A stretch of DNA of 63,976 bases, the filler included, from Craspedostauros australis (lineage: Eukaryota): the NCBI GenBank assembly GCA_030167865.1. It is 5 parts of 5 records of this genome, joined end to end, with 100 filler letters (N's around TTAATTAATTAA, not from the genome) between each part and the next. Parts side by side here need not be neighbours in the genome. Positions count along the whole stretch, not along the records: positions 1 to 23,646 come from JALAGF010006710.1; 4 more parts are not named here. One strand, 5' to 3'. The position numbers were made by a program, and so were the translations under genes. Under the pieces are notes generated by a model, which worked only from the letters and a program-made list of their open reading frames with translations, did not search any database and had not been told where the DNA came from. This document shows positions 1 to 63,976 of the stretch, in pieces; the stretch's first letter is position 1; the number at the start of each line of letters is the position of its first letter.

Positions 1-75
1 GACTCGCCCAACATCCATCTTTTCACCGATTCCTCGTGATGTTTTACACACTGCGTGTTTTGTCGCGTTATTCTT
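1..75. repeat. Left inverted repeat arm (partial)
   Basis: gactcgcccaacatccatcttttcaccgattcctcgtgatgttttacacactgcgtgttttgtcgcgttattctt matches the reverse complement of 3570-3644 with one mismatch. Confidence 0.95.
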
Positions 76-1859
76 CCAACCCAATAACACATGGTGCATT
101 TCCCTCTCGTATTAATATAATAATAATAATAAAAATAACAATAACAATAACCCACAACAATTAAACCTATAATAGGGAGTGCCTGAGGGCTTTAGCCTCG
201 CCCGCACATGCCTGGCTGCACCAGGTAGGTCGAGTATGTCACGAATATATGCACTCCTGTCATTTCCGCGTTTTAACAGCCACAGACCCAGGTGCCTGTA
301 CACTGCGCAACCTGGGGGATTGTGTAGCCCCACACAGGGCGCTGGAGGTGGCCCTTGTATCCTGGAGCACCATCACCAGGCCACGATGCACGCACCCCCA
401 GCTGAACAGCAGTGAGTCACCCCCATAGACCATGTGCGGACGTGGGTGTCGCCGTCCGGACTCCTGGCCTCCTGTCCAATCCGATTCTGTCCAGTCCTGT
501 AGTCACCCGCACGCTCATCCCCTGTTGCCTGCCCTGCGCCATCAGACCGCTCAATGCCACCCTCCAGCCCAGACCTTCCACCGCTCTGCGCGCTTCCATG
601 AAACAGAACTTTGTCTCGTACCACCCAACCAAAACGCAGCCAGGCTTTCCGGGCGTCATCCTCCGTCACCACACCAGCCTCGCCTCCGCGATGGGCCATG
701 GCTTGATCCAGCTGTTGCCAACCAGCAAAACCAAGACTGCGCTCCGCAGCTTCATAGCTCGCCTCGCAATCTCCCTTTCGCATTGCCTGTCAGTGTCTTC
801 TACACACCCGTTGGATTTCATCTTTCTCCATCTGCATCCGTTCTGATGTTCATTCCATCTGAACCCCTTCCGATCCTTGTTCCACACTGTCGTCTGCATA
901 CCTACGAACCATTGCTGCCTTCTACACTCTGTATCACTCTGCTGCATCATGTGTGCTTCAACATCCCTTCTATCACTCGTGAAACGGAGTGTTGACTGGA
1001 CTGATGACGACAGCGACGACAACCACCTCGACCCCAACTGCGTTGACGACACCTTTGACAGTGATCGAGTACTTCGTTCTCCTGATAGCTGAAAGCGACG
1101 AGGACATTCATAGCGTGTTGGAATCCAACGCCATCAGCGCTGATAACATTGATGCTGATGTTGATCGAAGTGGTGATTCCTACATTGCCAAGNGTGGATC
1201 ATGAGGAAACCTTCTTCCATCCATGACAACGCCAACCGCCAATGCCTCTACCAAAAATTTCAGCGCAACTACTGCAGGTGATGCTGCGTCCACAACAAAC
1301 ACAAGCACCCCATGCAAAGAGCACAACCAATCAGAGGCAGAATGGCTGGCAAGCATGGATCTCGTTGGCTCCTTCTTGATCCCGACAATGAAGAGTTCCC
1401 AGTTTTGGTGGGGAATGCCCGTCGGTACATATACGAATTGCTTCTTGGTGAGGTTCATCAACTCAGCTGTACCACCACAGATTGTTGTGGTTCCCCAACC
1501 CATCCATTTCAATACCCAGTTGATCAACCTGATCTTAGGTCTTGGATCTCTGCCTCGTCTTGGCATGGCGGCTCTCAGACATGTCGATCGCACTCCGCAA
1601 ACGCAGAGTTCAGATCTATGAATCCGGTTGCATCGGAAGACGATGAGCAAGCATCGCAGACTGACAAAGTGGGAGCAGAGGAGGAGTATTCCACCAACAA
1701 TCAATCCCACACCAGCATTATTGAAACGAACCAATCTACACAAACTACTGCACCATCAGCGACACCAGCCGCAGCCAGTGATCCTCTGGTGGCCGGGCTG
1801 ATGACCATGACAGCAGACGATACAAATCCGGACGTGGCAGAGGTCCATTGCTCCGCAGA

Positions 1860-2408
1860 CTTCCAGAACCTGAAGAGCCTGAAAAACAAACATGCCAAAA
1901 CAGCGCTGATGCCATGGTTCATGACACCACAGAAAGGTCAGGCGAACAGGTATGCCAGACTCGGCCACATGNNNNNNNNNNNNNNNNNNNNNNNNNNNNN
2001 NNNNNNNNNNNNNNNNNNNNNCAAGTGGCAATGGACTGCCAGGGCATGCTTGGAGGAAGCAGCCAATTCAGTGCAGCATTTAGGGTGGGCCTGGTGAAGA
2101 AGGGCAGCAAAGGCTACACTCGCGCATCTGCCAACTTCATCGGTATTGTTGGAGACCCCATAGGCGATGCAACAGACGAAGCTGTTATCGTGGAAATGAA
2201 AACAAGGACAACAGCCGAAACGCAAAGGGAGGAAGAGGCGCATCAGACAAAAGCACACTGGGTCCATGGCATCCCAAGCACCATCCACGTATTCTTGGAG
2301 TCGCGCAGCCCTTCATATCGAGCATTGATCAAAGCAGATGAAGAGATGCTGCAGGTTTCACATCACATTTATATATGGTGTGAAAGGGAGTGTTTTGGTG
2401 ATCGGTGA
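1860..2408 (+). pseudogene. YqaJ / lambda-exonuclease-like PD-(D/E)XK nuclease remnant
   Basis: Motif order across two frames and a gap: LMPWFMTP...YARLGH (GxxxE helix), FRVGLV...RASANFIG (ASxDG position), IVEMKT (ExK), MLQVSHH (QxxH/Y). Catalytic D appears as N, so degenerate. Confidence 0.55.
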
Positions 2409-2599
2409 GTGCGTTTGCGTCACTCAGAACTGCTATTCCTACCCGCTCCTTCCTTCGAATCGCGATTACTACAACCATGCCAGACTTTGTCCTCATGTCA
2501 ACCAATACAATGTTTGTACAATTCATTCCCTTTGTATGCTTGTCCTCCTCCCTGCATTCGGAGGAGGAGACGAAGCTTCCAAAACAATTACACGAGGGA

Positions 2600-2836
2600 G
2601 AGCACATATCATGGTACAACCCGAACAGAAGAGGAACTTGCATTGTATGTTCAGCCAGGACGAGATGGATTTGCCCTGGGTGCTACATTCATGCTTGTGG
2701 CTTCATGAAGCGGGAGAGACAGGAGTGGCTGAACAAATGTGGCATCGCACTCACTGTGGCTTTGAAGAAAGTCGCAAAAGGAGAAGATGCGGTGATCATA
2801 CAAAAACTCTTGCCACCAAATTGCTCACCAAGATGA
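2600..2836 (+). pseudogene. piggyBac-type C-terminal Cys-rich zinc-finger coding segment
   Basis: H-ISWYNPN-RRGTCIVCSARTRWICPGCYIHAC fits the RxxCxxC-T-x2-CxxC-x3-C pattern of piggyBac transposase CRDs. Confidence 0.55.
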
Positions 2837-3569
2837 AGCAGGGTGGGCAGACAAGGTACAAGCGCAGCTCGGAAGAGAGAAGTTAGCAGCAGCAGTGCCG
2901 AATGCTGTGGAGACTGTACCCGCCAAAGGTGGAGAAGCAAATGGTAGTGGAGAAAAACAGCAGGAGCAACTGCAGGCACGGACAGCAAAGCACCTGCAAT
3001 CGAAGAAACTATCAGAGGCGAGCAGCAACATGCGGAAGCAAGCCTCACACACACTTATCAAGAACCAATCGGAGATAAGAGGAGAACAATCCAGAGGAGA
3101 AGAAGCAGCAACCATCGAAGAGTAGGTCATGAACGCTAGCCCTGGATGTAGTAGAGGAGAGACAATGAGCGTGTCGGAAGCAATGGAAGCTCTTCAACGA
3201 GAGGAAGATGAGGACAAATTTGATGACGTGGATGCATCAACGGCAAAGTGGGCACAAACAAGCCAATGCACCACAGGAGTAGCAAGCGAGCTCAGTAGGA
3301 CACAAACAATATGATCTGTGCATAGGTCGGCAGCCGAGGCGAGGCTGAACAGCAGAACAGAATTGCTGTACTTGCACAGTCGAAATGGGCGGAAAATAGT
3401 GAGATAGATGAACTAATAATAATGCGTGTAACCCCAGGCTTCTGCCACAGTACATGTATGTGCAATATCCTCTATAACGCTAGTACCAGACGTAGTACAC
3501 ACCACCAATACAACAAAGGTTACAACGCATTGGAAAGAGAAGCTGCAACGTCGGGACAGTTTATGTCGT

Positions 3570-3644
3570 AAGAATAACACGACAAAACACGCAGTGTGTA
3601 AAACATCACGAGGAATCGGTGAAAAGATGGATGTTGGGCGAGTC
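3570..3644. repeat. Right inverted repeat arm
   Basis: aagaataacacgacaaaacacgcagtgtgtaaaacatcacgaggaatcggtgaaaagatggatgttgggcgagtc is the reverse complement of 1-75. Confidence 0.95.
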
Positions 3645-3694
3645 GAACTAATCCAATCTCAGAGAGGGGGTAATCTGACGAGTCATTTTGTGCT

Positions 3695-3789
3695 CGTAAG
3701 TGGATTGGTGAGTCCACTTACGTAACTGGATCGGTGAGTCCACTTACTGCGAAGGTGGCAAAATAAGTGGATCGGTGAGTCCACTTACG
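3695..3789. repeat. Three copies of a ~28 bp hairpin-forming repeat
   Basis: cgtaagtgga-ttggtgag-tccacttacg (3695-3722), cgtaactggatcggtgagtccacttac (3721-3747), taagtggatcggtgagtccacttacg (3764-3789); copy 1 has a perfect 10 bp stem and 8 nt loop. Confidence 0.9.
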
Positions 3790-4142
3790 AGAACACCGCA
3801 CAAAATTTTCCTTACGGATATCCCGGTTTGTTTCTGCACAATGACAACACCCACATGCGACCTAGGCTTTCAATGTGACAATGCAATCTTATGTGGCTAT
3901 GCGATTGATTGCCACGATGTCACGTCATCACTGACAGTTCCCATGTTCCACCATACCAATACAGAATAGAGCAGAATGGATTAGAATACAGAAGACCACT
4001 CTTCTATTCCACGGTCAGCCACATTGAACCAAATCAAGCCACAGAGTGGCGTAGAGCAGCTCGCATTGATGGATTGGTACCAGCCGCCAGCCTTTAGGAT
4101 CCATGCTGGCACTTGTCGAAAGCAAATGCCACTCCATACTCC

Positions 4143-6407: not shown

Positions 6408-8112
6408 TCAATTGGTACTCATGGAGCGGACGAAGTACACCAATGTCGCCCGATCCATGTGTGCATCCACATGTACTATACCCTCATCTCATCTACAACC
6501 TTGTACAGGTCCAGCATGAACATACAACTGTACTCATCATCGATACCATCACTCTTGGCTCTCCCACTGCAAAACATCTGGATCTCCGTCATCAGTTGGG
6601 GTTGTAGAATCAGCTTGCTTAAATCTAGATGAGTGAACACATCTTTCTCCCTTTCAGCTGCCATTCTCATTGCCACATCCTTCAGCACCACACAGTTGTG
6701 TTGAGGGGCGAATAGCAATGCATCTATCATGTTGTCCTCTGTGAGATGCTTGTGGGCCAACTCTGCTTCAAGAACAAGCTTGAGTCGCCAGAAGTCGAAC
6801 TTGTTGGCCACAAGGATCAGCTGTTGCAGATCGTGCTGTCCAGTGAGAATGAGAGTTGGCAGGTGAGAGGCATCTGCATCGTGGTGGGCGTCAGTGTGAG
6901 CGCTGGTGTGAGCGCCGACGCGAGCAGCAGTGTTTTCACGAACGCTGTCATCAAAGGATATCTCGCCTGTGTAGATGCATTGGAGGACGTATCGGACATG
7001 GTTTGGGTTGAAGGTTGGGAAGAGAGACAGTGACTTGCATGGGACCGTGCCGTCTCCGGTGCCATCATTCATGTGCTGATGTTGGATTTCTTTGTCGATC
7101 AGTGTCTCAATGGATGGGACGGTGATCATGAGGACTTTGGCGTTTGCCTTGATTGGTTGTTGTTGGTTGCCCTGTCCACACAAGAAGATGGTGTCTGACC
7201 TGTTCTTGGTGTGGAAGGATCTGAGCCAGTCTTCTGCAATGCGATGTTGGTCCTCTTGTGGCTGCTGTGTTTGTGTTCATTCTCTTGCCTCTTTCGCTTC
7301 AACTGTTGTCCCAACTGTTCTTGTGATTGTTCATTCTCTTGTTCGTTTTGTTGTAAGCGTTGCTGCAGTTATTGCAGTTGTGGGTGAGCTGAAGGCGAAA
7401 GTCCTCTGATGAGGGACTCCATACACTCCAGTTGGCCGCTGTCGCATGCGTTATCAAGGGGAGTGATACCATAGTTGTTTTGGCAGTTGATGTTCGCCCC
7501 ACATGATTTGATGAGGTACTTCACACACTCCAGGTGGCCGTTGCGGCATGCCCAATGAAGGGGAGTGTGACCATAGTTGTTTTGGCAGTTGATGTTCGCT
7601 CCACCTGATTTGGTGAGGTACTCCACGCACTCCGGTTTGCCGTCGTAGCATGTGTGATGAAGGGGAGTCCAACCATTGTTGTCTTTGCAGTTGATGTTCG
7701 CCTCACATGATTCGATGAGGTACTCCACACACTCCAGGCGGCCACACTTGCATGCCCGATGAAGGGGAGTCCAACCTCGGTTGTCTTTGCGGTTGATGTT
7801 CGCCTCACATGATTCGATGAGGTACTTCACACACTCCAGGTGGCCGTTGTGGCATGCCCAATGAAGGGGAGTGGCACCATGCTTGGTTTTGCAGTTGATG
7901 TTCACCCCACATGATTCGATGAGGTACTTCACACACTCCAGGTGGCCCTTGTAGCATGCCCAATGAAGGGGGGTCCGACCAGCCCGGTCTTTGACCTTGT
8001 TGACATCAACTCCTTCATCCTGCGCCTTGTTCTGCTTCTTCCATTCCTTCAACACCGACAAGTCACCTTCCCCGGCAGCATCAATGAGTTGTTGGTCTGT
8101 GACATTCGGCAT
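6408..8112 (-). pseudogene. Ankyrin repeat - coiled coil - BTB/POZ(BACK) protein pseudogene
   Basis: About six 34-aa ankyrin repeats (TPLHWAC..GHLECVKYLI); in-frame TAA at 7369-7371; frame continues LQQRLQQNEQE; frameshift near 7275 into SDTIFLC..VLQCIYTG..ANKFDFWRLKL..DALLFA..CVVLK (BTB); a further frameshift near 6480 before GIVHVDAHMDRATLV. Confidence 0.8.
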
Positions 8113-9519
8113 TTTGAGAGGATGGTCGAAGGTTGATGGTTGATGGTTGCTGGACGATTGACGTTGGACGATTGGTGTTGGTTTGGCTGTCGAGGAAGCG
8201 CGTAGTCTGAGCTATCTACTATAAGGCTGGAATATTGATCATGTGTCTCCAATAGCTTGTATTAGGATGAGTACCATGCACTGTGTGATGAATAGTCGTA
8301 TGAGTGGCAATTCGATGTCTGTTGTTGATGTGCTCGAGTATGGGGTTGTGTGGTGTGTGTCGTTGCCTTGTTGTCTTGGTCGCATGGTCCTCTGTTTGTC
8401 TCTTTCTCTCTCTTTCTCTCTCTTTCGCTCTTTGTGCGCCAGTGGCAGCGGAACTTGTGTTATCATGGGTGCATCGAATGCGATCTTGAGGTCTCATCAC
8501 TCAAACGAGTCGTGTGAGTGTGAGGAGGGGTTCGCGACTCCACTTTGTCACATGCGTGTGCGTATCCTTCACTCAGAAATGTTCGCCATTTGCATTCGCT
8601 GAGCTTCTCCTCCAAGAAGACAACAACATGGTGAGAACAAGAACGACACCGAGCGTGAGGAAAAACACGGCGTGGGATGAGCACTCGTTTGATGATCATG
8701 GATGCCCCATTGCACCACCACCACGGAACTGACAACGCTGCAACAAACACAGTGATGATGTGCATACGAGTAGAAGTGCTGTCAGCAGAAGTGTTACCAA
8801 CAGAAGTATCGACCAACAAGTAGAGAGATTCGAAGTATTTGCATCAGTGGCCGGAGATCCCACGGCACCAACACTTCCGCCATGTTCTTCCTCTCGTCCA
8901 TGTACACGCAGAGAATTGCATTCAGGAGGAACATCAGTCGCCATGGCGTTACGAGGACGCAACCGATCCATCGTACCTTCCTGGAAAACAGATGAGAACA
9001 ACAGCAGCAGCAGCAGCGCTGAAGGGGGCCGTGGCCGATTTCGGGCACGATCCAACACGGAACACCAGCGGTTTCTCCAGATTCGTGTTGACTCGCATTC
9101 TTTGCAACATAGTCGTACCACGCTCGCAGGATCCTCGATCGTCTCCACGTTCCAAGGATGTTGGTATGATGATGACTTCCGACACCTTCGCCCATGATCA
9201 CGTTCAAGCCAATGTTCAAGCTGATGTTCACGTTGATGCCAAAGTTGATCGGGTGATCACAGCGACATCGCGGTAACAATGTGAAATGAGAAACATCGTG
9301 AAACAACAATCAACGCAATGCCATGCACGCTGCGTGAAACGGAGCATGAGATACCACCACCAACGACCATGAAACAGAAGATGATCGCTTCATAACAAGC
9401 AGATAGAGATGAGATCAAGCGACTACGATCAGCCAAGCAATCATTCAATCACATAAAAGGCCCGTCGCATTGATCTGATCTGAGCAATAAATCATCCCAT
9501 CTCGAAACGAAGCTCCACC

Positions 9520-31910: not shown

Positions 31911-32039
31911 TGTGACAAGATGGAAATCTTGGTCTCATGATTCGCCATCGAGAACAAGAAACGATAACAACAAAACGAAATGAAGCACAATTTGTGTGAA
32001 ACAAGGACTCTGAATTTACGCTAAGTGGATTTCTCAACA
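31911..32039 (-). repeat. LTR-like element end (TGTTGAG...), copy 1
   Basis: Reverse complement begins tgttgagaaatccac and aligns with 36094-36233. Confidence 0.8.
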
Positions 32040-32158
32040 CATGAAGACCCAATGAAGAGGGCGAGTTTGCCATCATCCGTAAGGTGGCTGGCCCAAACCC
32101 TTCAAGACCTGGTGTTGGCGCGGAACCGGAGGAAGAATGTACTTGTGCTGCTGTCCCC

Positions 32159-34882
32159 TCAGGGCACAGTGGTGCAGTCTGGGCAAGTGCTGTTGGAGGC
32201 AATGGTCAAGACGGCGCCGAGGAGCGCGCAAGTGGAAGTCGACAGTACGTTGTATTGGCATCGGTTGCAGTTGGCGTTTTCCGCGGCAGGGTCCTCGTTG
32301 CACACGTTGTCGCCGAGGATGATGTCCGCGTTAAAGGAGCCGCCGTAGCCCATCAATTCGCAGGAGGCATTCGGCACGCATGTACCATCACCGATAAGCG
32401 TGTCTCCCTTGAACCCGCTCCATATTTGATTAAATTCGGAGCGAGAGTTCATGTCCGCGCACGATTCGGCGTTGACACAGGACCCGGTTCCCACGATAGT
32501 GTTGGATACAGGCTTGTTGTCGTCGCCGTTGCCCTGGCTGGTCGTTGTGCTGACGGGGTTGTATGGTCCAGAACCCATCGCATAGCAGGATGCAAAGCTA
32601 GCGCATGATCCTGCACCAATATTGGTGTCGCCGTTGGAGTTGCTCGCGAGGTAGAGGCATGCGTTTTTTCCAGTGCATGATCCTGCACCAATAATGGCGT
32701 CGCCGTTGGAGTTTGCCGCAAAAATTCTGCATGCTTTTCTTCCAATGCACGATCCTGGCCCAATGATGGAGGCCTTGTCACTTCCAGAGTTGAAGTTGAA
32801 GAAGTAGCATGAATAAGTGCCAGAGTGGCAGGATCCCTGGAAGATGATGGACTGAGTCTCTATGTTTTTGCATGCCCTGTACCCCATGCAACTGTTGGAT
32901 GCGATAGACGCAATGCCGATCCAGTTGCAGGTATCCTCTCCGTTACAGCATGCGCGCCCTTCTTTCTTACACCAACCCCTGGCATCAGCTGCGGTTCCCG
33001 TGAACATCTCACCGGGGGCGGAAGCGGCCGCCTCGAAGATATCGAGGACACCGGTCTTTCCGCTGATGGTATTGAAGAGAGCGACGCCGTCAGCAGTGCT
33101 GTTCTGGTTTTCGAAGATCCCGAGGAGATCAGCTTTGTCTCGGATAGTGGAGAGAAGGGCTACTCCCTCGGCTGTGTCTGGTGGTCCGAGAGCAACCGGG
33201 AATGTCAGGGGAGTTGGGGCGCTTGTTGGAGCGGTCGGTGCTGAAGTTGGTGCGCTAGTCGGTGTCGAGGTCGGCGAAGCAGTGGGGGCCGATGTCGGCA
33301 CCGATGTCGGTGCGCTAGTCGGTGCTGAAGTTGGCACGCTGGTCGGTGCCGAGGTCGGCGAAGCAGTTGGAGCTGTTGGGGATGGTGTGGGAGGTGACGT
33401 GGCAGGCGTTGGGAAAGGGGTGGGGGAAAAAGTTGGAGAGTCTGTGGGCAAGGTGTCCTTGCCAATACAGTACTCATCCACTCTGTCACCAGTGGGATTC
33501 ATGTTGCTGTCGTTGCCTCCCTTTGGGCAGGCCCCGTCGACATCGCTGATGATGTAGACTTTGTCGGAGTCGCACTCCGTCTTCGTCATGCATCCTCTGC
33601 AGCTATCAACACTGCCGCATCCACCAAGAGGGACGACGAGGTCGGTCCTCATCCTGTCATGGAAGCCCATCTTCTCACATGACCCATCGGCGGCACAGCC
33701 ACCAGCACCAATGGTCAGGCTGCCTGCATACTTGCCCGCAGTACCATGGTTGACAGTGGAATGGGCATCCTTGCAGGCACTGCTGCCAACGCACGCATTC
33801 GGGCCAATGTCGATATGGCTGCGGAAGCGATATGATGGCGACTTCTGCACGACGCGGCGGCCAGATGCATTGCATGCGTCTGGCCCAACGCATGCACCGG
33901 TCTGGATGGTGACATCACCATGAGAACGACGCCCCACTCCCTCACAAGAATGAGGGGTGGTGCATGCCATCTCACCAACAAAGGTGACTCCTGTGATGGA
34001 CGGGTTGATCTCGTTCTCATTCATCAACTCGCATGCACTTGTGCCAGTGCAGGAGGAATCGAGGATGAGCGGGTTGGGTCCCATGTCCTTGCAGGCGCTG
34101 TCACCAGTGCATGCCGTGATGGCGACAGTCATGAATGGAGGAGAGATGGAGGCGGAACCAGTGACTGAGGCGCATCCCGACGGTCCTTGGCAGCACAGAT
34201 CCGCAGCAGGCAGCGACTGGGCCATTCCGATGGTCATGCACGCCTCCTCCATTGCATCCGCTCGCTCGGTGATGAGGATTGCGTTGGTGGCAGCGACCAA
34301 CGCCAACTGCCCAGCAAGCACGTCATGCGACGCGTACTGGTTGAAGAGCTTGCGTGCAGCTCCTTCACCGAGGTCTCCTGCACATCCGAAGAAGTTCTGC
34401 AGCTGCTGGGATTCCTTGACGGCGGTCACTGCCTTGCGGCAGGATGGCTTGGCAGAGTTACAGATGATGGTCTTGGCGCTTGTCTCTTGTGGTGTGAGGG
34501 TGGTGGTGCCATCCGGCTGGCAAACGACCTCTATGGTGGAATCGAAGACGGTTGAAGCAGCTGATGGTTTGGATGTTGGCAGGCGGGTGGACTGGGAGGT
34601 CGGCGAGGCAGTTGGCGACCCAGTAGGCAATGCGGTTAGCGCTGTTGTTTCCGCACCAGCCGGGTTCTCAGTGGGTGGCACTCGGTTGTTCTTGTTGCCC
34701 TTGTTGCCCTTGTTGGTGTTTGCGTCATCGTCGGCGTCCTTGAGGATGCGGGTCTTCGTCATTGCTGTGTGGAGTTCCTTGGTTGGATCCACGGGAGTTC
34801 TGTTGCCGCGGAGGACAGCATGGGTTGTTGCCGTGTTGGTGACAGCGATAAAAGCCACGAAGGCTGCCTTGACGTTGAGCAT
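32159..34882 (-). CDS. Secreted Cys-rich repeat protein with PTS-rich mucin-like linkers (cell-surface/extracellular)
   Basis: Signal peptide MLNVKAAFVAFIAVTNTATTHA + VLRG; two blocks of IGxGSCxGxxAC repeats separated by (PTSA)n; intact ~908 aa. Confidence 0.85.
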   Translation of the reverse strand: MLNVKAAFVAFIAVTNTATTHAVLRGNRTPVDPTKELHTAMTKTRILKDADDDANTNKGNKGNKNNRVPPTENPAGAETTALTALPTGSPTASPTSQSTRLPTSKPSAASTVFDSTIEVVCQPDGTTTLTPQETSAKTIICNSAKPSCRKAVTAVKESQQLQNFFGCAGDLGEGAARKLFNQYASHDVLAGQLALVAATNAILITERADAMEEACMTIGMAQSLPAADLCCQGPSGCASVTGSASISPPFMTVAITACTGDSACKDMGPNPLILDSSCTGTSACELMNENEINPSITGVTFVGEMACTTPHSCEGVGRRSHGDVTIQTGACVGPDACNASGRRVVQKSPSYRFRSHIDIGPNACVGSSACKDAHSTVNHGTAGKYAGSLTIGAGGCAADGSCEKMGFHDRMRTDLVVPLGGCGSVDSCRGCMTKTECDSDKVYIISDVDGACPKGGNDSNMNPTGDRVDEYCIGKDTLPTDSPTFSPTPFPTPATSPPTPSPTAPTASPTSAPTSVPTSAPTSAPTSVPTSAPTASPTSTPTSAPTSAPTAPTSAPTPLTFPVALGPPDTAEGVALLSTIRDKADLLGIFENQNSTADGVALFNTISGKTGVLDIFEAAASAPGEMFTGTAADARGWCKKEGRACCNGEDTCNWIGIASIASNSCMGYRACKNIETQSIIFQGSCHSGTYSCYFFNFNSGSDKASIIGPGSCIGRKACRIFAANSNGDAIIGAGSCTGKNACLYLASNSNGDTNIGAGSCASFASCYAMGSGPYNPVSTTTSQGNGDDNKPVSNTIVGTGSCVNAESCADMNSRSEFNQIWSGFKGDTLIGDGTCVPNASCELMGYGGSFNADIILGDNVCNEDPAAENANCNRCQYNVLSTSTCALLGAVLTIASNSTCPDCTTVP

Positions 34883-36093
34883 CTTTGCTGTTGTCTTCGT
34901 TGCTGTCGTGAGACTGTTTGGTTCTGCACATCGGGCGCATTTGTATGTGTGCATGTATGCGTACGTGCCAGAAGAATGGGTTGGTATGAATCACGTATGG
35001 GTTGAGATTGGCAATGCGAGCATCACGTGTAAGTTTGGCGGCGAGTTCCGTCCCACGAACAACGGCAACGATTGTGAGTGTTGCAGTGATATGTTCGTTT
35101 GTGTGAGCGTAATTGTTGGTGTGTGAAATGACGCAATACGTGGTGGCGAGCAATGACAACGACGGCAATCAATGAAGATTAACGAGATCCATCAATCGAC
35201 ACAACATCGTGACGATTCGATCATGTCAAGATTGCGCACACAGGAGGCATCAGTTGCGCAGACGAAGGGAAGGGAAGGGAAGGGGAGAGAAGGAACGTGA
35301 TGGAAAAGAGCAGCTTGAGTTAATTCGGCTTGGAGGTGCGGGATTTGAGCACCTTGATGTGGAGTGGCGCGTGTCGGACATTGGCATGACACGAGGCATC
35401 CTGAACGAGATGGTCGCCATCGGCAGGCGCCGCAGCACCGCCGCATAACGAGGCGCGAAGATTGACTGGAATGTAGTAGGTATGGTGCTCACGCTCGTAA
35501 GTATCTTGCATCTTGAGCGTTGGTGCGTGCTGCCGTTTCACCAGTGCTGCTGCATCATCTGCGACACTGTCCGCGGCTCACGTGCGTGTTGACGTCGGTT
35601 TTGCAAATGAATACTCTCTCCGTTGTGTCGGTTTGAGTCTGTGCGTGCGCGTCTGTGCGTGCGCGTCTGTGCGTGCGCGTCTGTGCGTGTGCGTGTCTGT
35701 TGTCGATTCTTCCTCATGCACCAGCTCGGCTTCCATCCCCCTTTCTTCGTGATGTGCGCGTACCTTTTGAGCTGTTTCTCTTCGTTGCGGCCTCAGAGGG
35801 GCTTGTCTCTTTCTTACGCCTGCTGGTTGTTAGTTGATTGCTGGTTGCTGGCGTTTCCAATCTGATGATTGATCTGTTTTATGAGACTTTGTGTCGATTT
35901 CGGAGGCAACGAGGTGATTCCTGTGAGTTTGTTTCGCGGTGTTCTTAGTACACCCTTCCTCTGGAGGAAGATTGGGGGTTCAGCGAGGGCCAATTCTTCC
36001 TCCGAAGGAAAACCGCCCTCCAAAGGAAGGTTTCCGCCCTCTCAGGAGACAGCCAACCGGAACCACCTCCTAACACAAACTGGAGACCACACT

Positions 36094-36233
36094 TGTTGAG
36101 AAATCCACTGACCGTGAATTCAGAGTCCTTGCTTCACACAAATTGTGCTTTGTTTCTCATTTTGCTTTGTTGTCGTCATCGTTTTCTTGTTCTTGGTGGC
36201 GAATCACGAGACCAAGATTTCCATCTTGTCACA
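36094..36233 (+). repeat. LTR-like element end (TGTTGAG...), copy 2
   Basis: tgttgagaaatccactgaccgtgaattcagagtccttg...gagaccaagatttccatcttgtcaca; inverted relative to 31911-32039. Confidence 0.8.
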
Positions 36234-51996: not shown

Positions 51997-54900
51997 ATGG
52001 CATCTCACCGCTCTTTGAGGATCACTGGAGTACTCCCTATGGCATCAGCGAGGTCCAGTGCTTCCCCAACACCCGCTGCGGCGATGGGATCAACAAGCAA
52101 CATGGCATCTCCTTCCACTTCAGCCACACCACAATGCAGCAGGACATCGCTTCGCCTTCACGACACCGTCTTGACGTCAGGAAATGACTTCTACGATGAT
52201 GGATACAACGAGGTCGAGCTCGACACAGAAGTGCCAAGCTCGCTCTTTGGCAATCGCCGCAGTGGCAGCGATGATGGTAATGATGGTGATGATGGCAGAG
52301 ATGGAATGTTTGGACGTGAGGAGGAGCTGCGAACACTCCATCGCACATTCAAGCAGATGATACACAATTCCAAATCAAAAAGAAATAGGGATAGGAAAGG
52401 GACCACCCAGAAGTCCTCCGCAAATACCACCCTTCCGTCTCAGACATCCATGGATGTGACCACCGATCGATCCTTCGTTCCAGCCGCCTTCGTTTGGGGT
52501 ACCAGTGGCACGGGCAAGTCCAAGCTCGTCGACGTCTTCTGTGACCAGCTGCTCCAAACGACCAATACCCGCAAAGGCAGAGGAGTCCGCGTGCTGAAGG
52601 GCAAATTCCAGGAGCATCAGCAAGGCAATCCCTTCTCCGCCATCACCCAGGCGCTGTCCGATTGGTGCAAGCAGCTGACTCCCTCGCATTCATCACTGAC
52701 GCCCATCAAGGAGGTCGGCAGTGGGGAGAGGTATGAAGAGATGAGCGATGACGATGATGAAGATGTGGATGTGGATGTGGATATGGATGCAGATGGCCAC
52801 CCAACGAAAACAGCAGACGATCATCTCAAGACGGACAAGCAGCACCACCACAGCTCGAGCCACTCATCTGAGCTGCAACGTCTCCGATCCATCATCAGAT
52901 CAAGCAAGCTCACGATGCAACAGAAGGAAGTCCTTGTAGCATTCGTACCGGCGCTATCCATCCTCCTCAGTGACGATGACGACAGCAGCGTCGTTTCCAT
53001 CGCATCCTCCAATGCACGATATTCTCACCTTCCACAGGCATCATCGACAGACACATCATGGAATCAGTTCCAATACACCTTCACTCAGCTCTTGACCCTC
53101 ATCTCATCCAAGNNNNNNNNNNNNNNNNNNNNNNNNNNNNNNNNNNNNNNNNNNNNNNNNNNNNNNNNNNNNNNNNNNNNNNNNNNNNNNNNNNNNNNNN
53201 NNNNNNNNTGGATTGGCACAATCCGACAAGAGATCGATCCGCAGTGTCTGGATGAGGTGATGGAGTTGGATGCTGATCTTCCCTTCATGCGCCTCCTCGA
53301 TGATATGCGGTTGCAGTGTGCACCAGCACCAGCACCATCGGGACCGATGAGGACGATGACGACACCATATACCGACATCCACCTGCAGAACTTCAGCAAA
53401 GAGGCGCTACGCGACTGGGTGTCGCAGCTGTTTGATCAGGACGATGATGTCGTGGATGAAACCACCAAGCTCCTGCACGAACAGACTGCAGGTAACATCT
53501 TCCACACCATCCACCTGCTACAGGACATGGAGCGCACCAAGGCTTTGACATACAGCCGCATCACGTTCCAGTGGGAGATCGATGCTTCCCGGCTCAGTTG
53601 CACTCCAAGCAACAACAACCACAACATCAGTGATGGCATGGGCGGCAGCAGCCACGTCGTAGCCAACGGTGTGGTCCAACTCATCACATCCAGACTACGA
53701 TCTCTGCCTGTTCCATTGCAGAGAGCACTCGTGCTGNNNNNNNNNNNNNNNNNNNNNNNNNNNNNNNNNNNNNNNNNNNNNNNNNNACAGGCATCATCGA
53801 CAGACACATCATGGAATCAGTTCCAATACACCTTCACTCAGCTCTTGACCCTCATCTCATCCAAGTACCACCCGGTGGTGATGGTGATGGATGATTTGCA
53901 ATGGGCGTCACAAGAGTGCATGAATCTCATGTCCACAGCCATGTATCAACCCCACTTCCTATGGATTGGCACAATCCGACAAGAGATCGATCCGCAGTGT
54001 CTGGATGAGGTGATGGAGTTGGATGCTGATCTTCCCTTCATGCGCCTCCTCGATGATATGCGGTTGCAGTGCGCGACAGCATCATCGGGACCGATGAGGA
54101 CGATGACGACACCATATACCGACATTCACCTGCAGAACTTCAGCAAAGAGGCACTACGCGACTGGGTGTCGCAGCTGTTTGATCAGGACGATGATGTCGT
54201 GGATGAAACCACCAAGCTCCTGCACGAACAGACTGCAGGCAACATCTTCCACACCATCCACCTGCTACAGGACATGGAGCGCACCAAGGCTTTGACATAC
54301 AGCCGCATCACATTTCAGTGGGAGATCGATGCTTCCCGGCTCAGTTGCGCTCCAAGCAACAACAATAACACCAGCGATGGCATGGGCGGCAGCAGTCACG
54401 TCGTAGCCAACGGTGTGGTCCAACTCATCACATCCAGACTACGATCTCTGCCTGTTCCATTGCAGAGAGCACTCGTGCTGGCGTCGTACATCCGATCCTC
54501 GTTCGAGCTAGACGTACTACAAGCGGTGTGGGACTACGAAGCGCAGCACAGCTCCACCGGCGGTGGCGTCCTTGCCACTCCTGGAGGCAAAGTCAACGAG
54601 GCGGACGCTGGCAAGCCGCTTGTAGAGTGGTTGGAACAAGCTGTTCTGGAGGGCCTCCTCGCAAACTCCATCGGCGCTGCAAGCTATCGCTTCGCACATG
54701 ACCGCATCCAACAGGTAGCGCGTGATCTCGTGCCGTTCGGAGAGGCGCGCATGAAGCTTCGTCTGCGGATCGGCCAGTGCCTGTGGGAATTCTGCACAAA
54801 CACCACCACCAGCAGTGGTGGCGGTGGCGGTGACTCGCCCAACACAGTCACTGATCGAGGAAGCGACAGTGGCATATTCTTCATCGCAGCCGACCATCTC

Positions 54901-56877
54901 AACTGCGCCCCAACCAAGGATCATCTGACATCGACTCGACGCAACCTGCAAGTCGGCGAGCATGCGCTTCAGATCGCCGCTTTGGCGCCTGCTGCGACGT
55001 ATCTCCAGCTTGCGAACACTGCACTACGCAAGGTGAAAGGTAACCTGTGGCAAGACTACTACGATCTGACGATTCGATTGATGCGTGCTCGATGTGACGT
55101 CGAGCTCTCTCTCAGCCGATTCGACCTGGGATATTCGTTGGGAAACGAGGTGCTTGAGCATGCACGTTCTGCCCACGACAAGCTCCCCACGTACATTGTC
55201 ATGACGAAGGCCCTTGGTAGGCAAGATGACCATGCGGAAGGGTTACAGTTGGCCCAGGAAGGTGCCCAGATCTGTGGCGAGTATCCCAAGCGATGGTTTG
55301 CGTTCCATGGTATATCGCAGCTTCTTTCTGTCAGAGCCTACTTGAAGAGGACAACAGTGAAACAGTTCTTCGAACAAAATCCGATCACCGACAACCCACA
55401 AACATTGCTCCGAATGCACCTATTGGCGGAACTTTGCGTCCGAGCATATTCATGTCAAGACATAATGGCATGGATGGTGGCAGCCATGCGGACGATTCAG
55501 ATGACGAGGCGAGATGGCATCTGCGAGTATTCTGCCGGCGCCTTGATTTCCTTTGCCATGATCCAAGCAGGCTTGGGCAAGTTTGCGGACACACGCAAGT
55601 CCGCCCAACTTGCAAAGGAGATGACACTTAGGGTGGGCCGTGGGACGAGGACAGAGGGATGGATATACTACACCGTCGCCATGTATGTGGATTCGTTCTT
55701 CAAACCATGGAGTGAAGTCTCCCAGGATCTCCAGCATGCTTACACGTCGGCCATGGCAGTTGGCGATGTCGAGCTCAGCGTGCTAACCCAAACCAGCTCT
55801 ATCTTGTTCTCGTTCTTCGATGGGCGCCCCCTCCCCTACGTCGTACCGGCCGCAAGGTCTCTCTTCAAGCACACGGAGATATACAAGGTCGATGCGCTTC
55901 GGGGCACACTCGATGAATTGTTCTTGTTATACAACTGTATGCAAGGCAACATTGAATTGGAATGGGAGACAGTCATGGACGTCAACAAAGATGAACACAC
56001 AAACCCATTCGAACGAACCTCCGCTTATTGGGGTCGCCTCTACATCGCGGTGTACTTTGGCAAGTTCGAATACGCGGAGAAGATGGATCATCTGCTCACG
56101 ACGAACGGCGCCAACGACCACAGCTTTCCTTTTGTGACGACCGTTCCCTTCCTGAGTGGTGTGATGGCTTCTCATCGATACCGACAGACCAAGAAGAAGA
56201 AGTACCTCAAGATGCTACGGCAACGAAGGCGGGAGCTGAAGAACATGTGCGACCAGAAAGGAATCAGTGTGTACTATCTGTACTTGATTCTGCGCGCTGA
56301 ATGGAAGGCCATCAAGGTTGGAGCCACCAGGTCTGCCGTCGTGGACACCTGCTACGACAATGCCATCATGCATGCCAGAGCCGGAAACCATCTTGACTCA
56401 GCAGGACTGGTGAGCGAGCTGGCGGGCAAGCAGCTGCTGAGGAGCAGCGGCGGCAAGGACCCTCGCATCCGTGGCTACTTCACCCAAGCCCTGGGCTTCT
56501 ACGAGAGATGGGGCTCCGTCCCCAAGGCCAAGAGCTTCCGTGAAGAGTACGGTGACTACGTTGATGAAGATCGTGTGCGCAAGATGAAGGTGGACAACAG
56601 CCTCGTCGGGCAAATCAAGTCCATCGATCTTCGCGATCAGTCGCAGGAGCATCACAGTCATACGGGCCACACCCAAGATCTGATGTCACACGGAGCACCA
56701 GGCAATGGACTTGCCCAGTCTGTTTCCGACATCATTTCTAAAGGGCAGGCAAGCAAGGATCCGACGGTGAGGATGGCGAGGGATACCAATGTCAGAAGCA
56801 CGATAGGAAACAACGAATCGGCGGAGAGTGCTGTCGATGATGACGTCATGTCTCAGCTGACAGATTCATCGCAGTAG
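51997..56877 (+). CDS. STAND (SWACOS/AAA_16-like) ATPase with C-terminal helical/TPR repeats, paralog 1
   Basis: FGREEE; Walker A GTSGTGKS; GKF..PFSA; Walker B VMDDLQWA; GNIFH; YRFAHDRIQQ; ERWG. Contains a ~700 bp duplication across N gaps that is likely an assembly artefact. Confidence 0.88.
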   Translation: MASHRSLRITGVLPMASARSSASPTPAAAMGSTSNMASPSTSATPQCSRTSLRLHDTVLTSGNDFYDDGYNEVELDTEVPSSLFGNRRSGSDDGNDGDDGRDGMFGREEELRTLHRTFKQMIHNSKSKRNRDRKGTTQKSSANTTLPSQTSMDVTTDRSFVPAAFVWGTSGTGKSKLVDVFCDQLLQTTNTRKGRGVRVLKGKFQEHQQGNPFSAITQALSDWCKQLTPSHSSLTPIKEVGSGERYEEMSDDDDEDVDVDVDMDADGHPTKTADDHLKTDKQHHHSSSHSSELQRLRSIIRSSKLTMQQKEVLVAFVPALSILLSDDDDSSVVSIASSNARYSHLPQASSTDTSWNQFQYTFTQLLTLISSKXXXXXXXXXXXXXXXXXXXXXXXXXXXXXXXXWIGTIRQEIDPQCLDEVMELDADLPFMRLLDDMRLQCAPAPAPSGPMRTMTTPYTDIHLQNFSKEALRDWVSQLFDQDDDVVDETTKLLHEQTAGNIFHTIHLLQDMERTKALTYSRITFQWEIDASRLSCTPSNNNHNISDGMGGSSHVVANGVVQLITSRLRSLPVPLQRALVLXXXXXXXXXXXXXXXXXQASSTDTSWNQFQYTFTQLLTLISSKYHPVVMVMDDLQWASQECMNLMSTAMYQPHFLWIGTIRQEIDPQCLDEVMELDADLPFMRLLDDMRLQCATASSGPMRTMTTPYTDIHLQNFSKEALRDWVSQLFDQDDDVVDETTKLLHEQTAGNIFHTIHLLQDMERTKALTYSRITFQWEIDASRLSCAPSNNNNTSDGMGGSSHVVANGVVQLITSRLRSLPVPLQRALVLASYIRSSFELDVLQAVWDYEAQHSSTGGGVLATPGGKVNEADAGKPLVEWLEQAVLEGLLANSIGAASYRFAHDRIQQVARDLVPFGEARMKLRLRIGQCLWEFCTNTTTSSGGGGGDSPNTVTDRGSDSGIFFIAADHLNCAPTKDHLTSTRRNLQVGEHALQIAALAPAATYLQLANTALRKVKGNLWQDYYDLTIRLMRARCDVELSLSRFDLGYSLGNEVLEHARSAHDKLPTYIVMTKALGRQDDHAEGLQLAQEGAQICGEYPKRWFAFHGISQLLSVRAYLKRTTVKQFFEQNPITDNPQTLLRMHLLAELCVRAYSCQDIMAWMVAAMRTIQMTRRDGICEYSAGALISFAMIQAGLGKFADTRKSAQLAKEMTLRVGRGTRTEGWIYYTVAMYVDSFFKPWSEVSQDLQHAYTSAMAVGDVELSVLTQTSSILFSFFDGRPLPYVVPAARSLFKHTEIYKVDALRGTLDELFLLYNCMQGNIELEWETVMDVNKDEHTNPFERTSAYWGRLYIAVYFGKFEYAEKMDHLLTTNGANDHSFPFVTTVPFLSGVMASHRYRQTKKKKYLKMLRQRRRELKNMCDQKGISVYYLYLILRAEWKAIKVGATRSAVVDTCYDNAIMHARAGNHLDSAGLVSELAGKQLLRSSGGKDPRIRGYFTQALGFYERWGSVPKAKSFREEYGDYVDEDRVRKMKVDNSLVGQIKSIDLRDQSQEHHSHTGHTQDLMSHGAPGNGLAQSVSDIISKGQASKDPTVRMARDTNVRSTIGNNESAESAVDDDVMSQLTDSSQ

Positions 56878-56911
56878 ACAGAGGAAACGAGTATAATAAT
56901 GAGCTCAATAG

Positions 56912-57100
56912 TCAGGTGCTGTACGAGTCCACTCTATTTTGGTAGTGTTCCATGTCGAGGAATGGAGAGTACCCTCCCCGATCGCGTCGGAGGTGGTTGC
57001 GTGCTTCATGATTTCGCACGTCGACAGTTCCTGCTTTTGTTCTGAACCGGTTGGGTGACTTCATCCTGACCACAAGATACTTTCCACAATGTGGTGGGGG
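56912..57100 (-). mobile_element. Possible second Sola-like relic between the STAND paralogs
   Basis: GKYLVVRMKSPNRFRTKAGTVDVRNHE resembles GRCVMHKTNPRNRFRAKGMTVRSTHE of the 30164-30552 fragment. Confidence 0.3.
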
Positions 57101-58008
57101 TGAAAGAAGGGGACAACGGTCTGATAACGGTGTGGGCACAGTTGTGAATTGTGAGAATTGATTTTCGAAAAGTCTCAAAATGGGTCTGTTTCCTTCACAA
57201 TTTCACAATACCCATCAAATTACTGGACTCATTTTCTGTGCAATTTGGATGTTGATGTGTTTGCGGGACTGCTATGGTGAATTGTGCAAGGTGCGCGCCA
57301 GTCTGGCCAGTGCAGATTAGACGGAGTCATCAATCAGGGAAGCTGCTGTTGGCGTCTTTTATGTATTTGGGCAACACAACCCTTTCGCCACGAGTACCCA
57401 CAGGCACATAAAAAATTTCTGTGGTGGAGCAAAAGCGCAACCAAAGACGGCATCAGCACCACTCTACGGGTATGATTAGTACATAATACGTTGCTCCACT
57501 CGCTAAGCGTTGCTAATCACCCGAGAGGAACACCAGTAACATCAACCGTTGACTGCGATGAACAAAGATGGGATGGAGAGAGATGAGGAACAGCTGGCGA
57601 GGGAAAAGGACACAGGTTTGCTCATTCGCGCGTGGGGAATAGACTCCTCCGCAGAGGCGCATTTTCACGTGCGCGAGTTGCCGCGTGGGAGCTTTCTCAC
57701 TTCTTTCGTATGGTGACTCTCAAAGGGATGACTCTCTCAAAGAGGAAAGAAGTCCATGGCGGGGGTGGAGACCCCACCGACCCTTCCATTGAGCAAGACC
57801 ACATCTCTAGCCACATCTCTAGCCACAACAATAGAAACAGCAACAATCGAGCACCAGGAGCACTCCAAACATCAGCATCTGCGAGAAGCAAGGTGACGAC
57901 AAAGACCAAGGCACCCACGACATTGCATCTCACCGTTCGTCGAAGACCACCGGAGTACTCCCTGGGGCATCAGGGAAGTCCAGTGCTTCTCCAACACTCG
58001 TTGTGACG

Positions 58009-62754: not shown

Positions 62755-63976
62755 AGAGGGTCAAACCAGCTATTATTGATTGCATACTAACATCAGCCAT
62801 TGGCATGTACCTACCTTGGAACAGCTACATCCAACTGCAAGGAGATTCAGATTACATTTAGTCAGTTCATGTGCTGTCATTCGGTCACTGTGTGTAATGC
62901 GTTGGTCATATGTGCATACAAAATGTCAATCACAATCAGATCCGACCTGGCGCCCACTTCCAAAACACTCCAAAGGATCTGGTCACAAAGTATGAGGTCT
63001 TAGATCCGTCTGGAAGGTAGTCAAATCTGAGAATCTAGATTTCGAGTGGTGCTGTGGGTGACAGTACTGCGAGCTACGCACCATACTGTACAGTAGATTG
63101 CCCATATCTGCATAGAAAACGTCAATCGCAATCGAATCCAACCCTGCGCGCACTTACAACACACTCCAAAGGATCTGGCCACGAAGAATGAGGTCCTAGA
63201 TCCATCTGGAAGGTGTTCAAATCGATGGATCTAGATTTCAAGTGGAACATTGCGTCTTGTGAGGTAGATGGAGCACCGGACTGCCACCTACAGCACCACT
63301 CGGAATCTAGATCCATCGATTTGAACACCTTCCAGATGGATCTAGAACCTCATTCTTCGTGGCCAGATCCTTTGGAGTGTGTTGTAAGTGCGCGCAGGGT
63401 TGGATTCGATTGCGATTGACAGTTTATATGCACATTTTGACAATCTACTGTGCAGTTTGGTGCGTAGCTCACAGTACTGTCACCCACAGCACCACTCGAA
63501 ATCTCCACATCCAGATATGGATGCCTTCCAGATGGACTGGAGACCTCATAGTTCGTGACCAGACGCTTTGGGGTGTGTTGTAAGTGCGTGCCGGGTTGGA
63601 TTTCATTGCGATTGACATTTTCTATGCAAATTTTGACAATCTACTGTACAGTATGGTGCGTAGCTCATAGTACTGTCACCCACACTACATGATATCTAGA
63701 TTCTCAGATATGGATGCCTTCCAGATGGACTGGAGACCTAATACTTCGTGACTGTACTCGCTGAGGTGTTCTCGGAGTGGTGGAGTTGTTGTAATCAAGT
63801 ATGCTTGACATTTTGTATGCACATATGACCAACATAGTACACACAGTGACCGAACGGTATCATGAGAACTGGCTATATGAGATTTATCACTTGTTGCAGC
63901 TGGATCTGGACCGTCCCAAGGTAGGTACATGCCCATGACCGATGTCAGTATGCAATATAGTTGGTTTAACCCTCTC
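62755..63976. mobile_element. Non-coding foldback element (~1.2 kb imperfect palindrome built from ~196 bp subunits)
   Basis: Inner arms 63121-63237 and 63304-63420 are reverse complements (116/117) with a 66 bp spacer; outer arms 62755-62925 and ~63805-63975 are also inverted; subunit repeats start at 62926 and 63122. Confidence 0.85.

What the first reader, a model, noticed from the sequence alone, without database searches (positions are those of the whole stretch)
1..3790. Inverted-repeat-bounded element pairing a YqaJ/lambda-exonuclease-like nuclease with a piggyBac-type Cys finger
Seen: near-perfect inverted repeats (1-75 / 3570-3644) enclosing broken ORFs with PD-(D/E)XK-like motifs (GLV..ASAN..VEMKT..QVSHH) and RRGTCIVC..TRWICPGC..AC. 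Known: lambda-exonuclease accessory ORFs occur in some Kolobok-type transposons, and this CRD pattern belongs to piggyBac transposases. Inference: a non-autonomous copy of a possibly undescribed diatom transposon family combining both modules. No DDE core is visible, yet the repeats are almost intact while the cargo has decayed, which suggests mobilisation in trans.
Basis: partly seen in the sequence, partly recalled or inferred. Interest (0 to 1): 0.72.

Follow-up and report, generated by a model that had tools for sequence, protein, structure and literature searches.

The report
Gutted piggyBac with built-in exonuclease
This is a gutted but recently copied jumping gene whose intact relatives in the same algal genome encode a piggyBac-type cutting enzyme with a phage-type DNA-chewing enzyme built into its middle and insert at ATAT instead of the usual TTAA.

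Summary
The element ends at window 3817 (…TTACGG) followed by ATAT; its left 183 bp lie off the contig. It is one of about ten copies of a ~4-kb family, 91–97% identical. ATAT flanks 28 of 30 termini; the other two are one copy with GTAT duplicated, so this is a true 4-bp target duplication. The nuclease and Cys finger are not separate cargo. They are leftovers of one three-exon transposase. A full-length relative (L026, 6.6 kb, ~1,826 aa) keeps a DDD core that aligns with piggyBac (hhalign 95%; top fold hits piggyBac and piggyBat, weak Z). A lambda-exonuclease-fold domain (Z 15.5) lies between D2 and D3 and is under purifying selection. The window family lost D1, D2, D3 and half the nuclease by two deletions, so it moved in trans. 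It is not Kolobok. This scan noted the same architecture three times in other genomes. I found no description in nine paper searches, but it may be Repbase's piggyBacX (recalled, untestable here).

The parts
1..75 (+). Inner part of the left terminal inverted repeat (element positions 184-258; the outer 183 bp, ending CCGTGAGG after ATAT in other copies, lie off the contig start)
949..1553 (+). Broken remnant of transposase exon 1 (N-terminus; matches about residues 40-195 of the L026 protein); stops before catalytic D1
   Evidence: the match to the closest core-bearing relative L024 ends at 1553
1553..1555 (.). Deletion junction 1 (approximate): removes D1, intron 1, D2, the beta insertion and nuclease motif I
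1555..2404 (+). End of exon 2: S/T-rich linker and C-terminal half of the lambda-exonuclease-like domain. The motif II Asp reads Asn (ASAN) in all 6 copies that cover it; there is a frameshift at about 2370 in 5 of 6; N gap at 1972-2021
   Evidence: fold of homologue
2405..2548 (+). Retained donor (GTGAGT) and remnant of intron 2, containing deletion junction 2, which removes the start of exon 3 with catalytic D3 (KGGSD)
2549..3130 (+). Remnant of exon 3 with the Cys-rich domain CxxC-x7-CxxC-x4-C at 2639-2698, followed by the low-complexity tail
3570..3817 (-). Right terminal inverted repeat, ending TTTTCCTTACGG, with three 22-bp subterminal repeats (3698-3719, 3724-3745, 3765-3786)
3818..3821 (.). 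ATAT target-site duplication (right copy)

Best explanation
The window holds a non-autonomous, internally deleted (~4.0 kb) derivative of a piggyBac-related cut-and-paste transposon that targets ATAT. SHOWN BY SEQUENCE: autonomous relatives in this genome encode one three-exon protein of about 1,450-1,900 aa. Its order is N-terminal helical domain, D1, D2, beta insertion, lambda-exonuclease-fold domain (itself split by a SAP-like or low-complexity insert), D3, Cys-rich domain. A founder copy lost the core by two deletions and then spread to about ten places while its coding remnants drifted neutrally. INFERRED: a sister-family transposase, supplied in trans, binds the shared CCGTRAGGA tips and AAGTGGACTC subterminal repeats, excises the element by the piggyBac hairpin route and inserts it at ATAT, a palindromic tetranucleotide like TTAA. 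INFERRED, weaker (about 35% among the nuclease hypotheses): the nested nuclease is an active 5'-to-3' exonuclease held next to the flanking DNA, where piggyBac's insertion domain lies. It would resect the donor-site break so that repair copies the element back from the sister or homologous chromosome, turning seamless excision into copy gain. Trimming of hairpin or flap overhangs is the next option (about 25%).
For: Multi-copy family, 91-97% pairwise identity among 8 aligned copies. 28 of 30 termini flanked by ATAT, and GTAT duplicated at both ends of one copy. L026 has both ends, ATAT on each side and an open spliced frame of 1,826 aa with D286, D366, D1455. GT-AG introns sit at the same two positions across families. 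Unspliced or transcript-derived homologues carry the same order in one chain: P0008 has D1-D2-nuclease-D3, P0005 has nuclease-D3-Cys finger. hhalign of the core without the nuclease against this genome's canonical piggyBacs gave probability 95.4 and E 1.7e-8 with all three Asp in register; 20 of 20 shuffled or reversed controls scored at most 0.64. The N-terminal model's top two hits among 48,161 chains were piggyBac 6x67 (Z 6.3, rmsd 8.5, 208 aligned) and piggyBat 9c0f (Z 5.3, rmsd 7.8, 215 aligned). The nuclease model matched LHK-Exo (Z 15.5, rmsd 2.8, 183 aligned) and lambda exonuclease (Z 15.4; Foldseek E 3e-5). Motif II Asp is present in 19 of 19 listed rows and the ExK Glu in 18 of 19 (18 of 24 loci scanned gave rows). 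For the nuclease half, pN is 0.21-0.32 against saturated pS of 0.77-0.88 in 7 of 7 family pairs. In the window family the same stretch shows 8 synonymous and 30 non-synonymous changes. piggyBac's insertion domain lies between D346 and D447 and lines the target channel (PMC7351741 passages).
Against: No Pfam hit to PF13843 or YqaJ above cut-off for any family member, and the PF13843 genome scan did not list the contigs of L026, L027 or L036. The piggyBac fold match is weak: Z under 8, and Foldseek ranked 6x67 fifth at E 0.068. The D3 segment was never modelled with confidence. No intact parent close to the window family was found: the nearest core-bearing copy (L024, 81-85% identical) is broken by a Copia insertion, and the next is 66%, so the helper is unidentified. 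Nuclease activity, expression and present mobility are untested. The role assigned to the nuclease is inference only.
Confidence: 0.85

Rival explanations
1. Same element, but the nuclease works on the transposon ends: it opens or trims the 4-nt hairpin or flap overhangs, allowing insertion at imperfect sites, rather than resecting the donor site.
For: It sits inside the insertion domain, which in piggyBac contacts the hairpin loop and the target (PMC7351741 passages). One copy inserted at non-palindromic GTAT.
Against: ATAT is self-complementary like TTAA, so the piggyBac route needs no trimming at 28 of 30 termini (plus inference). The catalytic triad is intact in L026, so hairpin opening needs no second enzyme.
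Confidence: 0.25
2. The nuclease domain is kept for self-restraint or as a non-catalytic DNA clamp: it degrades excised or competing copies, or merely binds DNA ends.
For: The domain is split by long inserts of variable length (D2-D3 distance 678-1,089 aa), which may be hard to square with the toroidal trimer of lambda exonuclease (inference).
Against: Catalytic residues are conserved in nearly all rows and the model has a complete fold, which argues against a pure binding role.
Confidence: 0.2
3. It is a KolobokE or ISL2EU element, or a TIR shell that captured a separate YqaJ gene as cargo.
For: KolobokE encodes a lambda-exonuclease-like nuclease and Kolobok occurs in diatoms (PMC9587614 passages); ISL2EU carries a YqaJ ORF (PMC4122938 passage).
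Against: Ends are CC..GG with ATAT, not RR..YY with TTAA. The nuclease is inside the triad, neither downstream nor a separate ORF. The core aligns with piggyBac.
Confidence: 0.03
4. The two arms are independent MITE insertions around unrelated decayed DNA.
For: Short derivatives with related ends exist (L019, L020).
Against: Both copies with two ends (L014, L015) enclose the same interior, with one target duplication around the whole. The interior is collinear with a full-length transposase.
Confidence: 0.01

Closest known systems
Canonical piggyBac (Trichoplusia ni PB, PDB 6x67; piggyBat, 9c0f; Pfam PF13843)
   Same: CC..GG termini, 4-bp palindromic target duplication, subterminal repeats, unequal left and right ends, DDD triad with D1-D2 spacing of 76-80 aa (78 in PB), insertion between D2 and D3, C-terminal Cys-rich domain.
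   Different: Target is ATAT, not TTAA. The D2-D3 insertion is 680-1,090 aa and holds a lambda-exonuclease domain (62 aa insertion in PB). Two conserved introns. Not detected by PF13843.
Repbase/Dfam piggyBacX and piggyBacA subgroups (recalled; only the label 'DNA/PiggyBac-X' was seen)
   Same: As I recall, these are divergent piggyBac relatives with ATAT duplications, piggyBacX from red algae and oomycetes. This comes from memory and from no call.
   Different: Unknown: I could not read their definitions or sequences, nor check whether they carry the nuclease (review not held).
KolobokE (Kolobok superfamily)
   Same: [quoted passage not shown]
   Different: [quoted passage not shown]
ISL2EU (PHIS group)
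   Same: Eukaryotic cut-and-paste element with a YqaJ exonuclease.
   Different: YqaJ is a separate ORF, and the transposase is ISL2/IS5-like with a THAP domain.
Lambda exonuclease / LHK-Exo / YqaJ family (PDB 3slp, 3syy; PF09588)
   Same: Fold and motifs QG.P.WF..R..TSS, H..E, S.D, ExK, QxxHH.
   Different: Fused inside a transposase and split by a long insert; no Red-beta-type partner seen; the window family retains only the C-terminal half with Asp changed to Asn.

Membership tests
piggyBac superfamily | RNase H-like DDD core homologous to piggyBac, three Asp in register | tested here: met
   For autonomous relatives: hhalign 95.4, E 1.7e-8, controls at most 0.64; top fold hits 6x67 and 9c0f with weak Z. 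The window copy itself has lost all three Asp.
piggyBac superfamily | 5'-CC..GG-3' termini | tested here: met
   CCGTRAGG..CCTYACGG; definition from PMC10045372 passage.
piggyBac superfamily | 4-bp target-site duplication | tested here: met
   ATAT at both ends of L014, L026 and L092; GTAT at both ends of L015.
canonical piggyBac | TTAA target specificity | tested here: not met
   0 of 30 termini TTAA, 28 of 30 ATAT. PMC5381638 reports ATAT only rarely, in single copies.
canonical piggyBac | Pfam DDE_Tnp_1_7 (PF13843) match | tested here: not met
   No hit in 15 relatives; 107 other matches in the genome, none listed on the contigs of L026, L027 or L036. Introns and the insert may hide a match.
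piggyBac superfamily | C-terminal cross-brace Cys-rich domain | tested here: inconclusive
   CxxC-x7-CxxC-x4-C conserved at the C-terminus, only sub-threshold zf-HIT hits; not folded.
piggyBac superfamily | Hairpin-mediated seamless excision | not testable with these tools
   Needs biochemistry or empty-site comparison.
Repbase piggyBacX / piggyBacA | Sequence match to the Repbase consensus and its stated ends and target (ATAT, recalled) | not testable with these tools
   No Repbase or Dfam access; searches found only the label; review not held.
KolobokE | RR..YY termini and TTAA duplication | tested here: not met
KolobokE | [quoted passage not shown] | tested here: not met
   The nuclease lies between D2 and D3.
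ISL2EU | YqaJ in a separate ORF beside an ISL2-like transposase | tested here: not met
   One chain in P0008 and P0005 and in spliced loci.
Lambda exonuclease (YqaJ) family | Lambda-exonuclease fold with motifs I-IV | tested here: met
   Homologue P0008 residues 255-566: Z 15.5 and 15.4, Foldseek E 3e-5; motifs. Not met for the window copy, which lacks motif I and has Asn at motif II.
Lambda exonuclease (YqaJ) family | 5'-to-3' exonuclease activity and trimeric ring | not testable with these tools
   Needs purified protein.

The most novel reading that the evidence does not exclude
An undescribed lineage of piggyBac-related transposons, widespread in diatoms and other protists, has its own target (ATAT) and a two-active-site transposase. 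The nested 5'-3' exonuclease resects the donor break and steers its repair to homologous recombination, so that a cut-and-paste element copies itself. The same activity would explain why ends are swapped between families and why coding interiors are flipped relative to the ends in this genome.
Probability: 0.2. Interest if true: 0.8.

Novelty: new variant of a known kind. Interest (0 to 1): 0.5.

Why it matters
piggyBac is a main gene-delivery tool, limited by its TTAA preference. A natural relative with strict ATAT targeting and a seemingly intact full-length copy (L026) could widen that tool set. Lambda-exonuclease-like domains travel with three unrelated eukaryotic DNA transposon groups (KolobokE, ISL2EU and this one), and I found no account of why in the passages I read. 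Here the nuclease is in the same chain as the transposase, so one point mutant would test its role directly. The window copy itself is a dead derivative; its value is as a cargo-free substrate that shows which ends suffice for movement in trans.

Tried and rejected
Pfam scans of window ORFs, copy ORFs and relatives gave nothing above cut-off. Three word-index protein searches found nothing or only the query itself. The full HMMER search gave 10 weak homologues, E 1e-6 to 1e-3. Sequence-profile searches of PDB gave lambda exonucleases only at E 0.45-1.1. ESM Atlas hits were under 0.9 and are leads only: YqaJ 0.82 for the nuclease part, and P-element-like RNase H 0.77 for the core, which does not point to piggyBac. 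In the first fold the transposase core had low confidence, so it was refolded alone; Foldseek on that model found nothing at E<=0.001. No sequencing run was listed, which is no evidence on expression. Searches for an intact close parent found none. The 6.6% divergence for window 1-80 conflicts with 0.8%; it is probably an alignment-edge artefact, which I did not check, and I used. My first splicing script missed L026, L031, L032 and L034 because of its filters; only L026 was redone. Kolobok, ISL2EU and twin-MITE readings were rejected. Nine paper searches found no description of an ATAT-targeting piggyBac or of a nuclease inside the triad. The library lacks Repbase Reports and most subscription papers, and I read no supplements (those of PMC5381638, PMC9587614 and PMC13461360 could list such elements).
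Full report
Observation. The window starts at base 1 of contig C6710, so the left arm is cut. The arm occurs at 13 places and the interior on at least 8 contigs at 92-100% identity. Aligning 12 ends shows that the element stops at …TTTTCCT(C/T)ACGG, window 3817, followed by ATAT. Each end is about 250 bp and has three 22-bp subterminal repeats. The inner ~185 bp of the two ends are nearly identical and the outer ~75 bp differ. The complete copy L015 is 3,961 bp; the window lacks 183 bp on the left.

Target site. A pattern that did not include the flank found 30 distinct termini in the loci then held. ATAT flanks 28 of them; the other two are the two ends of L015, with GTAT duplicated. A later, overlapping set gave 32 of 34. 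The tetranucleotide is therefore a target duplication, not part of the repeat. CC..GG ends with a 4-bp duplication are the piggyBac/IS1380 pattern (PMC10045372, passages). Kolobok has RR..YY ends and TTAA (PMC9587614, passages). In 157 piggyBac-like elements ATAT was seen only rarely, in single copies (PMC5381638, passages).

Parent. The nuclease-like peptide of one copy (P0001) has 84 matches in the genome. I fetched 20 of these loci. They share one layout: an exon ending LDDDKVH…RHxxxNRxG, an exon with DRG[FY] and the nuclease motifs, and an exon with KGGSD and the Cys finger. GT donors lie at the same two positions. Splicing gives open frames with introns of about 100-150 bp for L027, L033, L036 and L037 and for L026. 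L026 (C949, 227-6863) has both ends, ATAT on each side and a 1,826-aa frame with D286, D366, nuclease motifs at 568-1319, D1455 and the Cys finger at 1631. Homologues from elsewhere show the order without splicing: P0008 has D1, D2, nuclease with a SAP-like insert, and D3; P0005, a diatom transcript product, has nuclease, D3 and Cys finger. Named homologues come from three diatoms. By eye, transcript-derived P0006 is nearly identical to part of the L038 frame, so the lineage is transcribed in a diatom.

Domain identity. A model of P0008 was confident only for residues 255-566. That part matched LHK-Exo (Z 15.5, rmsd 2.8, 183 aligned) and lambda exonuclease (Z 15.4; Foldseek E 3e-5). For the core I aligned the nuclease-free profile to canonical piggyBacs from the same genome: probability 95.4, E 1.7e-8, with LDDDK/IDEMM, MDRGF/MDNFF and KGGSD/MGGVD in register; 20 shuffled or reversed controls scored at most 0.64. 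A separate model of the N-terminal part of P0004 (pLDDT 71) ranked piggyBac and piggyBat first and second of 48,161 chains, aligned over 6x67 residues 117-430, but with Z only 6.3 and 5.3; Foldseek gave E 0.068. Against this reading, Pfam recognises neither domain, and the ESM Atlas leaned to P-element-like RNase H at a non-significant 0.77. In piggyBac the insertion domain (372-433) lies between D346 and D447 and lines the target channel (PMC7351741, passages). The nuclease occupies that position.

The window copy. Against L026, it keeps about residues 40-195, about 1,070-1,334 and about 1,600 onward, and lacks D1, D2, nuclease motif I and D3. The intron-2 donor survives at 2405. All 6 copies that cover the site have Asn for the motif II Asp, and 5 of 6 share the frameshift near 2370. 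Intact families keep Asp in 19 of 19 listed rows. Among copies the nuclease remnant shows 8 synonymous and 30 non-synonymous changes, as expected without selection. Between autonomous families pN is 0.21-0.32 with saturated pS, like the D2 region. Ends differ from the majority by 9/1,113 and 7/662 bases, interiors by 1.4-2.6%; this fits selection on the ends, though collapsed assembly of repeats could contribute. So the founder was already crippled and spread in trans. The helper is not identified: L024 (81-85% identical, with D1 and D2) is broken by a Copia insertion. Sister families share the tip and the subterminal repeat, and L089 joins a window-type end to another family's interior, which suggests that ends are interchangeable.

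Mechanism. Shown: anatomy, target duplication, deletions, selection pattern. Inferred from piggyBac: hairpin excision and insertion at a palindromic tetranucleotide. Inferred and untested: the nuclease is active and most likely resects the donor break to favour homology-directed restoration of the element (about 35%); end trimming (25%) and self-restraint or binding (20%) are rivals.

Known systems. It works like piggyBac and passes the tests for core, ends and duplication length, but fails TTAA and PF13843, so it is not a canonical piggyBac. KolobokE has a similar nuclease downstream of the transposase, and ISL2EU has YqaJ as a second ORF (PMC4122938, passages); both memberships fail. A survey of 13,693 piggyBac subfamilies filtered on a TTAA-type motif and reported N- and C-terminal fusions (PMC13461360, passages). 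A broad DDE survey did not mention an exonuclease (10.1101/2021.09.26.461848, passages). The Repbase table lists only 'piggyBac' (PMC4455052, passage). The label DNA/PiggyBac-X exists (10.1101/2025.07.30.667784, passage). I recall that Repbase's piggyBacA and piggyBacX make ATAT duplications, but the review was not held and this is memory only; I put about 55% on this lineage being piggyBacX. Nine searches (listings only, except the papers above) found no description. No supplements were read.

Earlier scan notes. After I had reached this reading, one search returned three unchecked notes from other genomes with the same nested architecture; two searches returned none. They agree and are not independent support.

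Verdict. Real, recently spread, non-autonomous derivative of an ATAT-targeting piggyBac variant with a nested lambda-exonuclease domain. New variant of a known kind, possibly already catalogued in Repbase. Interest 0.5.

Noticed in passing
L026, L044, L092, L104, L106, L107 versus L093, L098, L105, L089 and the window family: Two outer-end types occur. Type A lies 5' of the transposase in some families and 3' in others (window family, L105); type B does the reverse. The coding interior has been flipped relative to the ends more than once.
   Followed up: partly
L089 (G000:C6727:2841 onward): Chimera: an outer end nearly identical to the window family's left end sits at the 3' end of an interior that is 89-91% identical to another non-autonomous family.
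   Followed up: partly
L014:2051-2800: A TG…CA insertion of about 0.75 kb with a CATTTT duplication lies inside the right terminal repeat of this copy; probably a solo LTR.
   Followed up: no
L024:2546-5119: A Copia-type retroelement interrupts the closest core-bearing relative, and a second, more distant member of the lineage lies head-to-head with it.
   Followed up: partly
genome G000: 107 PF13843 matches: canonical piggyBacs are abundant alongside the ATAT lineage, many with a long S/T-rich insert in the N-terminal domain.
   Followed up: partly
copies of the window family, window 200-3500: 148 of 339 transitions fall in CpG, which covers 290 of 3,300 bases; this fits CpG methylation of these copies.
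   Followed up: no
window 31911-36233: Another pair of inverted repeats (51 and 63 nt, 90-94%) about 4.3 kb apart, starting TGTGACAAG; a possible second TIR element.
   Followed up: no
window 62779-63956: A 1.2-kb fold-back element with nested 196-bp repeats.
   Followed up: no
window 52121-61366: Tandem segmental duplication with 5-6 kb spacing at 87-98% identity.
   Followed up: no
window 6476-8211 (- strand): An ankyrin-repeat ORF (102-bp period) followed by an ORF that looks like a BTB domain by eye.
   Followed up: no
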